Assembly (NCBI GenBank): GCA_964016885.1
Contig: OZ024743.1
Coordinates: forward strand, 242,730,001-242,794,000
Length of the DNA stretch: 64,000 nucleotides
Direction: 5' to 3'
DNA from: Eledone cirrhosa
Lineage: Eukaryota
Part shown: in pieces, positions 2,431 through 53,620 of the stretch
Numbering within the stretch: the first letter of the stretch is position 1
Layout: every line of letters begins with the position of its first letter
Notes under the pieces: generated by a model
The model's input: only the letters and a program-made list of their open reading frames with translations
Told to the model about the DNA's origin: nothing
Database searches by the model: none
Position numbers and translations under genes: made by a program

Positions 2431-2599
2431 GTCTAATAATATATGTGTGTGTGTATATATATATATATATATATATATATATATATACTATATATATATA
2501 TACACATATATATATATATATATATATATATATATATATATATATATATATATATGAGAAAGAACACAAGAGCGTCTACAACATCAAAAGATTTTTATT

Positions 2600-2647
2600 G
2601 GCTTACAATGTTTCTTCCTTACGTAACCGTAGGATTCATCAGAGCTA
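2600..2647 (-). ncRNA. Type I hammerhead ribozyme motif in a PLE pLTR-like fragment (2555-2890)
   Basis: Minus strand reads gcu-CUGAUGA-a-uccuacg/guua/cguaagga-a-GAAA-c-auu-g-UA-agc, then AAUAAA and (TA)n. Confidence 0.7.
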
Positions 2648-2979
2648 TAAAAGGGGTTTGATTGGTGTTATGGACTCTACCAACCAAACATTCAAGAAAA
2701 AAGAGTAAAGAGAGTAAAGAGCAAAAGCAGGGGACGATAAGTCTAATTTTGGTGCGGTGGGGTGGGGGGTGGGTCCTTGTTTACTAGCTGTGGTCATATT
2801 CATTCCCGGGAGTCGAGTGGTTAGTGGAGCCATAGATGGGGTGGCGTCGATAGTAGAGTGCAGAGGGTGTGCAGAGGCTACACACACACAAAGGGCATAC
2901 AATATATATATAACGGAGGAGAAAGTAAATGAGGTAATTAGAAATGGAATAAGAGTAATAATAATAATCTATAATTAAT

Positions 2980-3163
2980 TGTTCTACTTTAGGCACAAGG
3001 CCAGCAATTACCCAGTGCATTACTGGTACTTTATTTTATCGACCCCGTAAGGATGAAAGGCAAAGTCAACCTCGGCGGGATTTGAACTCAGATCGTAAAG
3101 GGACGTAACTATGCTGGAAAGCATGGCGTCCGACCCTCCACCGATATTGCCAATCCACCGCCC
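2980..3163 (-). mobile_element. tRNA-derived SINE (family A), full length
   Basis: A box TGGCAATATCGG, B box GAGTTCAAATCC, central GCCTTTCATCC..GGGGTCGATAAAATAAAGTACC, (ATT) tail. 11-bp TSD ctataattaat at 2969-2979 and 3163-3173. Confidence 0.85.
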
Positions 3164-3244
3164 TATAATTAATAATGTATAATAAGGCATGGGGAAGATT
3201 ATATATATATATATATATATATATATATATATATATCAATAAAT

Positions 3245-3960
3245 TATACAATTATCAAAGTTGTGTTCAAATCATTTAATAGCTGACAATCGTTTCTTCC
3301 AAACTCTCGTTTGGAATCATCGGAGCTTTATCAATGTTTGCACATATAATTCACCTCCTATTCAACTGAACACTAATATAGATACATATAAATTGATGTT
3401 GTGAGCAGCAGTTTCGTATTAACAGGGTGGGATGGATGCGACATATATTTTACGAGAATTGTACCATAATTGTACAAGCATTCAAGTTCAAATTAAAATT
3501 AAAATCAAAATCAAAATCAAAATCAAAATCAAAAGCACGGACGGAATACATGCAACAGTTAAAACAAGGGAATAGTCCAAATATTAAAGAGGCATTGAGG
3601 AAGCAGTTTTGAGAAAGGAAGAGTGCGATAACAATTCATTTGCAGGCGTGTGGATATTGTGACTGCGTAGGTCATATATATGAGAAGGAGACAAGCAAAG
3701 CTATTATGCATATATAGAAGAATAAATACTGCAGTTAGAGCAATTGTCTTAATGTATTAGAGTCTATGGTGGGTGTTGGATGTTTATGGTGTTCGAATTA
3801 ATGTGTGTTGAGAAACATACAGTTTTTGCAGGCTTTTCCATGGCATATGTTGAAATAAACTTTAGTTGGTGTTTATAATGAGTGTTTTGAGTTAGTTAGA
3901 GCAATGGATTGTAAATTAGTCTTAATGAATTCATATTCATAGACTATATTTGATCAACCA
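3245..3960 (-). mobile_element. Degenerate Penelope-like element 3' remnant
   Basis: Minus-strand ICHGKACKNCMF (Cys-rich linker-like) plus the hammerhead motif at its 3' end next to (TA)n. Confidence 0.45.
3281..3327 (-). ncRNA. Hammerhead ribozyme motif with one core substitution
   Basis: agcu-CCGAUGA-uuccaaac/gaga/guuuggaa-GAAA-cgauug-UC-agcu: perfect 8-bp stem II, 4-bp stem I, GUC site; CUGA is changed to CCGA. Confidence 0.7.
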
Positions 3961-50135: not shown

Positions 50136-50224
50136 TATTATCATATTATTATTCACTCACGAATACATTTAGGTATCCACCATGTTAAGAGCGAAAACAA
50201 AGTTTGTTTATATATACATATATA

Positions 50225-52310
50225 CTGAGAATAAATGGGAGAAAGACAGTCTCCCCCATATCGACCCAATAGAGGGACCAGCAGTGTTAGTCGAGGGGAG
50301 TATAATAAGTAAGGCAATCAAGGATATGAAGACGGGTAAGGCGGCTGGACCTTCGGAAATAGTTGCTGAGATGCTGAAGGCATCTGGCACGGTGGGACAC
50401 ACCATGGTCACCCGCATAGTTAACCAAGTCGTACAGAATGGGGTTGTTCCGAAGGACTGGCATAGCAGCATCATCGTTAACTGTTATAAGGGTAAAGGAG
50501 ACGCCCTAGGTAGGAGTAACTATAGAGGCATTAAATTAATCGACCAGGTCATGAAGGTCACGGAAAAAGTAATAGCGCAACTAATCAGAGAGAGAATTGA
50601 CCTAGATGAAATGCAGTTCGGGTTTGTGTCAGGCAAAAGCACCACAGACGCTCTTTTCATAGTACGACAACTACAGGAGAAGTACCTAGCTAAAGGTAAA
50701 CCCCTCTTCTTAGCTTTTGTCGACCTGGAGAAAGCCTTCGACAGAGTCCCCCGCTCCATTATCTGGTGGGCTCTTAGAAAACTAGGCGTTGACGAATGGC
50801 TTGTGAGGGCTATACAAGCCATGTATAAAGAAACAGTCAGCAAGGTTAGAATTAACAACGAATATAGTGAAGAGTTTAGCGTAAAAGTTGGCGTCCATCA
50901 GGGCTCTGTTCTCAGCCCCCTACTATTTATTATTGCCCTTCAGGCTATAACAGAGGAGTTCAAGACAGGCTGCCCGTGGGAACTCCTATACGCAGACGAC
51001 CTGACACTCATAGCGGAATCAATGGCCGAGCTAGAGAAGAAATTCCAAACATGGAAGCACGGCCTAGAGTCAAAAGGCCTTAAAATTAACCTGGCTAAGA
51101 CCAAAGTTCTAGTTTGTAGGAAAGAAAACAAGGCGGCGGTCCCTTCTGGGAAATGGTCGTGCTCGGTGTGTAGGAAAGGCGTAGGTAGAAACTCCATTTT
51201 ATGTCCTAAATGCAAAGTATGGGTGCATAAAAGATGTAGTGGGATCACAGGTAAGCTAACTAAGAACATAGATTTTACATGTGGCCGGTGTTCTGGTGCA
51301 ATAAGTAGCAGCAAGTGCCCAAAAAATACTAGCTCTTTCAATTGCGCAGAGGGTTCTATAGAAATAGTGGACAGCTTCCGTTACCTGGGCGATAAAATCA
51401 GCAGTGGGGGAGGGTGCTCTGAAAGTACTGTAGCTAGAGTCAGAACTGGTTGGAAAAAGTTCAGAGAGCTTATACCACTATTAGCTGCTAAAGGGTTCTC
51501 CCTAAAAATGAAAGGCAGGTTGTACGATGCCTGCATACGAACAGCAATGTTGCATGGCAGTGAGACCTGGGCATTGTGTGCAGAGGATATACGCAGACTA
51601 GAGAGGAACGAAGCTTGCATGCTCCGCTGGATGTGTAACAGTAATATACGTGAACGGCAAAGCATAAACGAACTAAGGAAAAAATTAGAGATAAGAGGGA
51701 TCAGATGTTGTTTACTCGAGAGAAGGCTACGTTGGTATGGACACGTGATGCGCATGAAAGTCGATAGCTGTATAACAAAGTGCAGGGCAATAAAGATAGA
51801 CGGTAGCCACGGAATAGGCAGACCTAGAAAAACCTGGGACGAGCTGATAAACTCCGACCTCACACACTTACACCTCTCCAAGACAATGTCACTGGACCGA
51901 GACCTTTGGCGGTACTCAGTAACAGAGAAGACCCGCCTTGCCAGTAGGCATCTCTAACAAAATACACCCCGTCCCGCCACCACCCCCACCCCATCCACAC
52001 CACCCCGTTCTATGTAAAGTTATGTTGGTGCCGCGCCATCCAGGCCGAAACAAATGAGATCGTGTAAGTGTCACGACAAAAAAACACACAGTCCACGCTG
52101 TAATGTGGCCGTGTAGGCAACACGGTAAAAACCTCCCAGACCCACACTGTAAATGTGGTTGGTGTTAGGAAGGGCATCCAACTGTAGAAAACCTGCCAGA
52201 CAGTCCTATGCGAGCAAGACAATCACTCTTGCCTCAAGTGGGACTACCCCCGTCCAAACCCATGCAAGCGTGGAACACGGACGTTAAACGTTGATGATGA
52301 TGATGATGAT
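50225..52310 (+). mobile_element. Young 5'-truncated RTE LINE with an uninterrupted RT frame
   Basis: About 575 stop-free codons: KGKGD..NYRGIKL, QFGF, FVDLEKAFDRV, VHQGSVLSPLLF, YADD, PHD-like C4HC3 finger, LHGSETW, GRPRKTW; (GAT)n tail; the 5' end abuts (TA)n. Confidence 0.95.
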
Positions 52311-52979
52311 ACTTAACATCCGTTTTCCCTGCTAGCAAGGTTGGACAGTTCACCACAATCTAAGTCAGGGATGTGTGTGTTGTGTCTATGTTGGTATATC
52401 CCAGAAATTAGCAGTTTGACAAAAATAAGTACTGAGGATTGATATGATCACATAAATCAGTCCGAAGCAGTGCCCTAGCAAGGCCACAGTCTAAAGAATG
52501 AAACCATGAAACCAGTAAAAGAATGAAAGAATAATTTTGATTTGGGATGAATTTGGGGATTTGCCGAAGTTCTAAGAAAAATTTCTAAAAACAATATTAA
52601 CGGCAAGTAAATTAACATTGAAATTTAACATACCCACATCTAAGCTAAACAACATTTTTTAATGGCTTTAAGTTATTTTCTTTTGTTCTACAGAGCGACC
52701 GGATCAAGTGAAAATAGAGGAGTTGCAATACCAATATCTAGTTACTAATAGTTGTCTCCCTTATTTTGGATTAAATACGAGTTATTTCCCTTGTGCTGCT
52801 ATTTTTATATTTTTTTTATAGTAATTATTCATAAATGTTTCATATTAGAAGTAAAATAGTTAAAATCTCTTTAAAACTTCTTACCGGCTTTGAATAACAA
52901 GTATAATTTGGAAATACATCCTGTCTCCTTTAAATTATAGATTATGTGATCATATCAATCCCCAGTATTTATTTTTTTC

Positions 52980-53363
52980 AGCAGCGATTTGCGTTGGACA
53001 AAGCACATCTCTAAAATTGTCAAGAAGGCCCGAGGGTGTCTTGACATTACTCAGCAAGACCTTTGTCAGCCACTCTCCAGCTGTATACAGCTATGGTGCG
53101 GCCACACTTTGAATTTGCATCACCAGTCTGGAACCCCTATCTTGCTCAGAACATTGATCTCCTGAAAACTGTTCAGAGACGTGCAACCAAGCAAATACCC
53201 TCCATCAGGCATTTACCATGTGAACGCCTTGCTTCCTAGGGCATGGATACATTGAAGCTCCGGCGTCTGGCAACTGACTTGGTAAACACCGACAAAATTA
53301 TTAACCATCTGAAATTCGCCAACACTACACCTTATATCCCCCCTCCATACACATGCACACGTT
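52980..53363 (+). mobile_element. CR1-group LINE fragment (same family as 1-425)
   Basis: MVRPHFEFASPVWNPYL..TVQRRATK..LKLRRL; its 3' end gaaattcgccaacactacacc matches the reverse complement of about 290-345. Confidence 0.75.
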
Positions 53364-53476
53364 TTTGCCACTAATTTTTGCCAGCTGAGTGGAGTGGAGC
53401 AATTACGTGTTCCAGCCGACAGGCTGAGTCCATGGTGGGGTATTGTCATATATATATATATATATATATATATATA

Positions 53477-53620
53477 GAAGTAGTTCCACAACAGTTAATT
53501 CACTATTTCCGAGAACAATTGTTTCACCTTATTTGGATCATCAGCTCGAGCTTCTACTAAACTTGTCCCATGGACTGAGTACTCTACTACTACGGATATA
53601 CCGCACCAGTGTTCTACTAT
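53477..53620. mobile_element. Non-coding PLE pLTR mini-element with inverted 5' half, inside (TA)n
   Basis: Homologous to 13676-13812; the ribozyme half is inverted and the distal half is in forward orientation. Confidence 0.8.
53509..53550 (-). ncRNA. Minimal hammerhead ribozyme, sense within the homeobox pre-mRNA intron
   Basis: cgag-CUGAUGA-ucc/aaauaa/ggu-GAAA-caauug-UU-cucg; intact core and 4-bp stem I. Confidence 0.72.

What the first reader, a model, noticed from the sequence alone, without database searches (positions are those of the whole stretch)
2555..53620. Five to six hammerhead-ribozyme elements of several families, all associated with (TA)n: a candidate PLE/retrozyme system
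Seen: CUGANGA...GAAA..NUH cores with pairing stems at 2600-2647(-), 3281-3327(-), 13663-13720(+), 27090-27133(-) and 53509-53550(-), plus a degenerate one at about 26839-26865(+) (CAGAAGA-uccc/guuaa/gggu-GAAA). Flanks mostly differ, so several families are present; three have palindromic stem III. Known: PLE pLTRs and metazoan non-LTR retrozymes carry minimal type I hammerheads with palindromic helix III, thought to work as dimers. Inference: this genome hosts a dense population of self-cleaving non-autonomous elements mobilised by PLE RT/GIY-YIG into (TA)n. ORF-based annotation cannot see it.
Basis: partly seen in the sequence, partly recalled or inferred. Interest (0 to 1): 0.75.

Follow-up and report, generated by a model that had tools for sequence, protein, structure and literature searches.

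The report
Hydra-Penelope hammerheads with altered cores
The hammerhead-ribozyme motifs are real: five are ends of protein-coding Penelope-type jumping genes that sit in TA repeats, two belong to protein-free repeats that likely borrow the same enzyme, and the most abundant family keeps a changed letter in the catalytic core in nearly all copies, which likely weakens self-cutting (untested) and offers a natural test of whether these elements need their ribozyme.

Summary
They are mostly not non-autonomous elements. Five are 3' ends (pLTRs) of protein-coding Hydra-clade Penelope-like elements; two of these are still attached to their ORF in the window. Two (22354, 27127) belong to 330-430-nt tandem, octamer-bearing retrozyme-like repeats with the same TA targeting. 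Hydra elements with hammerheads and (TA)n targeting are published for Octopus (PMC8557442).

Not found in print: (1) about 185,000 canonical-core motifs in this 3.0-Gb genome, extrapolated from 990 kb; (2) the 'degenerate' 26839 motif is the norm of the most abundant family, a U4A core in 19,763 exact copies against 92 canonical, whose fold is conserved across subfamilies; (3) a fixed U4C core at 3323 (599 against 30). Cleavage is untested.

This scan has already noted the system, and the U4A family, on other DNA of this genome. Verdict: known kind, new variant.

The parts
2556..3199 (-). 5'-truncated 3' UTR/pLTR piece of a Hydra-clade PLE family (family A); ends at the short 3' end in (TA)n; interrupted by a SINE at about 2975-3162
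   Evidence: 91-98% identical to the 3' UTR of the HHR-ORF-HHR copy in L275; SINE and its flanking duplication read
2601..2645 (-). Type I hammerhead, canonical core (2642-2636), A-A at the base of helix II, non-palindromic helix III, predicted cut between 2604 and 2603
3237..7127 (-). Near-full-length Hydra-clade PLE (family B): broken RT + C-terminal GIY-YIG ORF 7127-4688, 1.4-kb 3' UTR, short 3' end in (TA)n
   Evidence: 94.5% identical over 3.87 kb to L278; motifs
3281..3327 (-). Type I hammerhead with family-fixed U4C core (CCGAUGA, 3323-3317), 8-bp helix II, predicted cut between 3285 and 3284
12477..13811 (+). 5'-truncated Hydra-clade PLE (family C): ORF end at 13491, pLTR, short end at 13747 and long end at about 13812 (tail about 65 nt), then (TA)n
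13663..13720 (+). Type I hammerhead, canonical core (13680-13686), U-U plus 2-bp helix II, palindromic helix III, bulged long stem I, predicted cut after 13709
22101..22400 (-).
26713..26908 (.). Two-armed mini-insert of the U4A Hydra PLE family (family E) between (TA)n runs: tail arm 26713-26804 on -, hammerhead arm 26798-26908 on +
26819..26892 (+). Hammerhead fold with family-fixed U4A core (CAGAAGA, 26839-26845), U-U plus 3-bp helix II, 4-bp helix III, CUU triplet, predicted cut after 26879, outer stem I beyond a bulge
26924..27371 (-). 1.35 units of a 330-nt old retrozyme-like repeat (family F); hammerhead 27091-27132 with decayed G12; octamer at 27209-27216
53475..53619 (.). Two-armed mini-insert of a relative of family C between (TA)n runs: hammerhead arm 53475-53548 on - (perfect core 53544-53538), tail arm 53551-53619 on +; lies in an intron of a homeobox gene, hammerhead in the gene's sense
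58900..60085 (+). Third Hydra-type PLE relic, cut by a LINE before its 3' end, so no hammerhead (limits approximate)

Best explanation
The seven motifs are the hammerhead-bearing 3' ends of five Hydra-clade Penelope-like retrotransposon insertions and two protein-free tandem repeats, and all were likely pasted into (TA)n by Hydra reverse transcriptase/GIY-YIG proteins. Shown: linkage of families A, B, C and E to Hydra-type ORFs; (TA)n at the 3' ends; two fixed 3' ends per family, about 57-135 nt apart, each ending in TA-compatible letters; back-to-back arms with unequal ends. Inferred: the protein nicks both strands of a TA run and primes cDNA at the two fixed sites downstream of an uncut (or religated) hammerhead; early stops give 150-200-bp two-armed mini-inserts such as 26713-26908 and 53475-53619. 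Inferred: families D and F are transcribed from an internal octamer-type promoter and borrow this machinery. Inferred: cleavage is slow or conditional (dimer- or protein-assisted), and in family E the U4A fold is kept mainly as an RNA structure needed for mobilisation.
For: PLE protein lies upstream of the family C hammerhead in 30 of 30 loci, and family B's own C-terminus lies 1.3 kb upstream in 7 of 25, the window copy included. HHR-ORF-HHR copies exist for A (L275), B (L278) and E (L280). Hydra motifs RW(R/K), DKT, CxCX5C and CxxC..E..N..CxH are present (definition). Distance from the hammerhead to (TA)n is bimodal in A, B, C and E. 9 of the 11 inverted arms of family C whose pLTR end is visible stop at 13747. 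Family D copies stop at monomer position 248 or 305; 8 of 25 loci have an adjacent inverted arm ending at 305, and tandem units occur. An exact octamer lies near the match in 17 of 25 D loci and 18 of 25 F loci, against 1 of 135 for the PLE-type families. Two RT start sites explain the PLE tail in vitro, and hammerhead mutants still insert (PMC11167929). U4A family: lineage-shared changes at 17 of 86 columns upstream against 1 of 66 from the core to the end, in 34 copies (p=0.0003).
Against: There is no RNA evidence: no RNA run was listed, and cleavage, transcription and circles are untested. No tree against Hydra reference proteins was built, so the clade call rests on motifs. No ORF was found for the exact 53.5-kb subfamily (0 of 25 loci, but the query selected mini-inserts). 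D and F share no sequence with a PLE in my data, so their mobiliser is inferred from the footprint only. The conservation test anchored on part of the conserved region (up to 5 mismatches allowed) and cannot separate the hammerhead from overlapping signals such as the RT start site or a promoter.
Confidence: 0.88

Rival explanations
1. One reading: all motifs belong to independent, self-cleaving non-autonomous elements (retrozymes).
For: Five of the seven window copies have no ORF attached; D and F are protein-free tandem units; mini-inserts with the same two-armed shape recur.
Against: Families A, B, C and E have ORF-bearing copies, and their short copies have variable 5' ends, as expected of truncation.
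Confidence: 0.05
2. The U4A and U4C hammerheads are active ribozymes: position 4 is tolerated in this context or rescued by the Hydra protein, so their conservation reflects catalysis.
For: Every other core letter, the triplet and all helices are kept across subfamilies. A natural U4C viroid variant keeps enough activity in vivo (PMC3088659). A PLE hammerhead cleaved only with its protein (PMC11167929).
Against: In a mutational scan all single mutants of the CUGA turn had low activity (PMC9901934; a type III construct). No U4A copy starts within 3 nt of the cut site (0 of 56), though canonical family C shows none either (0 of 15).
Confidence: 0.35
3. U4A is a neutral accident that hitchhiked with a successful element; the ribozyme is dead, and the region looks conserved only for other reasons (RT start signal, promoter) or through lack of time.
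For: Hammerhead mutants still insert in vitro; Naiad PLEs reach high copy number without canonical hammerheads (PMC8557442).
Against: The adjacent upstream sequence has gathered 17 lineage-shared changes over the same time, while the fold has one, in a loop.
Confidence: 0.25
4. The motifs are chance matches in AT-rich repetitive DNA.
For: Individual folds are weak (z from +1.4 to -2.5), and Rfam does not detect them.
Against: 61 canonical motifs in 990 kb against 1, 1, 1 in shuffles. Stem I positions 4 and 5, beyond the descriptor's minimum of 3, pair in 76 and 72 of 82; all pair types occur across 15 sequence groups.
Confidence: 0.01

Closest known systems
Hydra clade of Penelope-like elements, including Hydra-1_Obim of Octopus bimaculoides (Craig et al. 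2021, PMC8557442; read: abstract, passages, section 11, supplement part 2 with Files S1 and S2)
   Same: C-terminal GIY-YIG, RW(R/K), DKT, CxCX5C, CxxC/CxH, (TA)n insertion, 3' hammerhead often closing helix II with U-U, inverted 5'-truncated partner.
   Different: All Hydra hammerheads listed in File S2 have CUGANGA; families B and E here have fixed U4C and U4A. Units of A, B and E reach 3.3-4.9 kb through long 3' UTRs (published: generally under 3 kb). Tails are about 65-135 nt (published for PLEs in general: 30-40 bp). The Hydra-1_Obim hammerhead listed in File S2 does not match any of the seven by eye.
Metazoan non-LTR retrozymes (Cervera and de la Pena 2020, PMC7229834, parts 2-3 of 6 read; Li et al., bioRxiv 10.64898/2026.07.22.740005, parts 1-3 of 5 read)
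   Same: Families D and F: 330-430-nt non-coding tandem units, each with a type I hammerhead, co-occurring with PLEs.
   Different: Here they are mostly 1-2 units with variable 5' ends, fixed 3' ends in (TA)n and inverted arms. Circular RNA and cleavage were not tested. No sequence homology to a pLTR was found.
Minimal PLE hammerheads (Cervera and de la Pena 2014, PMC4209133, parts 1-2 of 4 read)
   Same: Many sequence families per genome, mostly solo copies from truncated PLEs, palindromic helix III in part (38 of 82), and U3-A8 core families (20 hits in 990 kb).
   Different: G10.1-C11.1 is rare among the canonical, U4A and U4C motifs (7 of 82); many motifs have a stable non-palindromic helix III.
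Poseidon PAc of Anolis (Frangieh et al. 2024, PMC11167929, parts 1-2 of 4 read)
   Same: Two RT start sites downstream of the hammerhead define the tail; AT-rich target; hammerhead upstream of the next ORF in tandems.
   Different: Different clade. PAc priming was reported as non-homologous to the target, whereas the ends here finish in TA-compatible letters.
Newt satellite 2 (seen only as one citing passage in PMC2220036; the original paper is not held)
   Same: Hammerhead repeat driven by an snRNA-type internal promoter; families D and F carry an octamer upstream of the hammerhead.
   Different: No proximal sequence element or transcript was tested here; that the newt promoter contains an octamer is recalled, not read.

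Membership tests
Type I hammerhead ribozyme | CUGANGA and GAAA boxes with an NUH triplet | tested here: met
   Met for 2642, 13680, 22354, 53544
Type I hammerhead ribozyme | CUGANGA and GAAA boxes (variant copies) | tested here: not met
   3323 has U4C, 26839 has U4A, 27127 has G12A
Type I hammerhead ribozyme | Three helices with open stem I, supported by covariation | tested here: met
   Across families all pair types occur. In families A/B 92% of cells pair, but the double-sided changes come from one imperfectly aligned row. Within family D a few stem I double changes are visible.
Type I hammerhead ribozyme | Self-cleavage after NUH | not testable with these tools
   No RNA run listed; 5'-end footprint test inconclusive
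Hydra-clade PLE | Single ORF, RT followed by C-terminal GIY-YIG | tested here: met
   L275 745-aa frame; weak GIY-YIG hits below the Pfam cut-off; more than 1,200 homologues, some named from molluscs
Hydra-clade PLE | RWK motif and DKT in place of DKG | tested here: met
   RWR and DKT in L274 (family A), DKT in L275 and L280; the window copy of B has RWR and a decayed NKT
Hydra-clade PLE | CxCX5C linker; CxxC and CxH around conserved E and N; no CCHH | tested here: met
   Invariant columns of alignment A2; absence of CCHH judged by eye
Hydra-clade PLE | Insertion into (TA)n | tested here: met
Hydra-clade PLE | Short element (generally under 3 kb) | tested here: inconclusive
   Family C about 2.5 kb (L273); units of A, B and E are 3.3-4.9 kb
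Hydra-clade PLE | Grouping with Hydra references in an RT tree | not tested
   No named Hydra reference protein was available as a tool-delivered sequence
Non-LTR retrozyme (families D, F) | 150-450-nt non-coding tandem unit with a type I hammerhead | tested here: met
   430-nt units in tandem in L086, L095, L103/L285, L243; 330-350-nt partial tandems for F; PLE protein within 1.5 kb in 1 of 25 and 0 of 25 loci
Non-LTR retrozyme (families D, F) | Expression as linear and circular monomer RNA | not testable with these tools
   No RNA run listed

The most novel reading that the evidence does not exclude
The most abundant hammerhead family of one of the most hammerhead-dense genomes known has traded catalysis for structure: a Hydra PLE amplified to tens of thousands of copies with a U4A core whose fold is still under purifying selection, so PLE hammerheads serve first as a protein-binding or priming scaffold, and octamer-driven retrozymes hijack the same two-ended insertion into (TA)n.
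Probability: 0.35. Interest if true: 0.68.

Novelty: new variant of a known kind. Interest (0 to 1): 0.45.

Why it matters
Why Penelope-like elements carry hammerheads is an open question: PMC8557442 calls their function unclear, and PMC11167929 found cleavage dispensable in vitro. This genome offers sister Hydra families with canonical, U4C and U4A cores, each with hundreds to about 20,000 exact copies, so one set of cleavage and priming assays could decide whether catalysis or structure is what is selected. The density (about 60 canonical-core motifs per Mb, about 100 with variants) is roughly an order of magnitude above the axolotl's 126,247 in 28 Gb, although the descriptors differ. Rfam misses these motifs. 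Some lie in the sense strand of host introns, as 53544 does.

Tried and rejected
Rfam scans gave only microsatellite/miRNA noise and nothing at gathering score. My first descriptor demanded a pair at 10.1-11.1 and found 0 perfect motifs; it was relaxed because most motifs here have U-U or A-A there. Minimum-energy folding does not recover the hammerhead fold for most copies and is no test. No RNA holder was listed. Contigs of runs X1 and X4, of unknown kind, were laid on a family E copy and used only to see that intron-skipping joints exist in X1. The test for 5' ends at the cleavage site gave 0 of 56 (E), 0 of 15 (C), 2 of 22 (D), 1 of 3 (F) and 2 of 25 (a U3-A8 family) within 3 nt: inconclusive. 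A hidden canonical-core master for family E was rejected: 92 against 19,763 copies, and the 12 loci fetched (two overlap) are mostly 5'-truncation or inversion junctions, two being isolated point changes. Neptune and Naiad membership were rejected on domain order and linker motif. Folding of the tails showed hairpins, but I did not establish a shared one. One search used a mis-registered structure and was replaced. One search stopped on a shuffle bug after three cores; repeat it with Markov shuffles. One search matched only one copy and was replaced. Literature searches for U4C, U4A and octopus hammerheads found no natural U4A report. Fig. 5 of PMC3088659, the bioRxiv supplements and subscription papers, including Lunse et al. 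2017 (recalled only), were not seen and could list it.
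Full report
OBSERVATION. A descriptor that checks both core boxes, the triplet and three helices finds 4 perfect type I hammerheads in the window (cores at 2642-, 13680+, 22354-, 53544-), against a mean of 0.07 in 40 shuffles. Three named sites deviate in the core: 3323- (CCGAUGA), 27127- (AAAA for GAAA) and 26839+ (CAGAAGA). 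Rfam shows none among the 150 listed of 196 hits and none at gathering score in 7 loci. The window lies in a 3.0-Gb genome, and four exons in it match Octopus homeobox-containing protein 1 at 85-100%, so the host is an octopod.

WHAT EACH MOTIF BELONGS TO. Each site was used to fetch the 25-30 best of 40 scored genomic copies. Family C (13680): PLE protein lies upstream in 30 of 30 loci, and in the window the ORF ends at 13491. Family B (3323): the motif ends a 1.4-kb 3' UTR of the element at 7127-3237, which is 94.5% identical to an HHR-ORF-HHR copy. Family A (2642): a 3' UTR piece of a sister family with a 745-aa open frame in L275. Family E (26839): an ORF ends about 960-1,000 nt upstream in five copies and about 240 nt upstream in two. 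The 53544 motif is 85% identical to family C; no ORF was seen in its 25 loci, but the query selected mini-inserts. Families D (22354) and F (27127) have PLE protein within 1.5 kb in 1 of 25 and 0 of 25 loci. They are circularly permuted units of 430 and 330-350 nt that occur as partial or full tandems. An exact octamer lies near the match in 17 of 25 D and 18 of 25 F loci, against 1 of 135 for the other families.

CLADE. The proteins carry RW(R/K), DKT, CxCX5C and CxxC..E..N..CxH with a C-terminal GIY-YIG. These are the diagnostics of the Hydra clade (PMC8557442 section 11). That paper's supplement lists Hydra-1_Obim from Octopus bimaculoides with (TA)n preference and a hammerhead, and many Hydra hammerheads that close helix II with U-U. 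No tree against references was built.

INSERTION FOOTPRINT. The distance from hammerhead to the first (TA)5 is bimodal in A, B, C and E, and the two ends are about 100, 135, 65 and 87 nt apart. Family D stops at monomer position 248 or 305. In family C, where the query selected long ends, 9 of the 11 inverted arms with a visible pLTR end stop at window position 13747. In D, 8 of 25 loci have an adjacent inverted arm ending at 305. The inserts at 26713-26908 and 53475-53619 are the shortest form: a tail arm and a hammerhead arm back to back between TA runs. In vitro, a Poseidon PLE starts reverse transcription at two internal sites that define the tail, and hammerhead mutants insert normally (PMC11167929). 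I infer that a Hydra protein nicks both strands of a TA run and primes at the two ends. An intact terminal hammerhead in DNA requires a template that was uncut or religated at that site (inference).

DENSITY. In 99 evenly spaced 10-kb stretches (990 kb) the descriptor finds 61 canonical cores against 1, 1, 1 in Markov shuffles; 19 U4A against 0, 0, 0; 2 U4C against 0, 2, 0; and 20 U3-A8 hits (19 sites) against 2, 1, 2. That extrapolates to about 185,000 canonical motifs (Poisson range 141,000-237,000, too narrow given clustering). The window, with 4 in 64 kb, is ordinary for this genome. 74 of 82 motifs have (TA)5 within 250 nt downstream (background 16%), 38 of 82 have a palindromic helix III, and 43 of 82 have U-U at the base of helix II. 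Stem I positions 4 and 5 pair in 76 and 72 of 82, and all pair types occur across 15 sequence groups. Published counts, made with other descriptors, are 126,247 for axolotl and over 6,000 for Acropora (PMC7229834).

CORE VARIANTS. Family E is the largest single group in the random sample. An exact 29-letter pattern finds 19,763 copies with A at position 4 and 92 with U. The U copies fetched are mostly junction products, with two isolated point changes, so no canonical master is evident. In 34 longer copies, changes shared by 3 or more copies occur at 17 of 86 columns upstream, at 2 of 25 in the outer stem and bulge, and at 1 of 66 from the core to the end (p=0.0003). The anchor allowed up to 5 mismatches in part of that region, and overlapping signals are not excluded. 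Family B and a sister subfamily keep U4C: 599 copies against 30, a share that fits CpG decay. Family F also shows CCGAUGA in several copies and CpG-type decay in others. A natural U4C viroid variant and U10.1-U11.1 are known (PMC3088659). All single CUGA mutants had low activity in a type III scan (PMC9901934). I found no natural U4A, with the gaps listed under Tried and rejected.

AGAINST OR UNRESOLVED. There is no RNA evidence. 5' ends do not cluster at the cut site in any family, so cleavage in vivo is neither shown nor excluded. Single folds are weak. The mobiliser of D and F is inferred from the footprint alone.

EARLIER NOTES OF THIS SCAN. After forming this reading I found that the scan had noted Hydra ends, two-armed retrozymes and the U4A family on other DNA of this genome. 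They agree with my results but are not independent support.

VERDICT. A real, dense set of hammerheads from a published kind of element. The worthwhile part is the family-fixed U4A and U4C cores with a conserved fold, which make the role of PLE hammerheads directly testable. New variant of a known kind; interest 0.45.

Noticed in passing
L194 (minus strand, about 409-1081); L010; L237: The family E 3' UTR holds a candidate GT-AG intron of about 665 nt with a pyrimidine tract, ending about 105 nt upstream of the hammerhead core. L010 lacks it precisely, the two arms in L237 lack it with 4 extra letters, and run X1 has contigs with the skip.
   Followed up: partly
window 45778-56667 (-): Four exons of a homeobox-containing protein 1-like gene (56667-56512, 54155-53955, 48736-48617, 46080-45778). 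The perfect-core hammerhead at 53544 lies in the sense strand of an intron, about 410 nt after a 5' splice site.
   Followed up: partly
L198, L202, L212, L230, L236-L239, L312, L315, L316, L328, L329: At least four families with the U3-A8 covariant core and a G10.1-C11.1 pair, 20 hits in 990 kb; none in the window.
   Followed up: partly
window 13830-13975: A 145-bp near-perfect palindrome centred on a (TA)n run directly after the family C element; probably a two-armed insert of another family.
   Followed up: no
window 29497-29576: Perfect hairpin formed from the common SINE sequence.
   Followed up: no
family E copies in 1.67 Mb of loci: 5' ends pile up 38-53 nt upstream of the predicted cut site (15 of 56), at the 5' edge of the core and stem I, as if copying often stops there.
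   Followed up: no
window 26908-26924: The family E mini-insert and the family F repeat share one short TA run, as do families A and B at 3200-3236: nested use of the same microsatellite.
   Followed up: partly
window 50173-51957, 60091-63236: LINE copies with a PHD finger after the RT domain.
   Followed up: no
window 12060-12374 (-); 29848-30375; 57533-57603: Helitron-type helicase fragment, a 52-bp minisatellite of 10 copies and a tRNA-like match.
   Followed up: no
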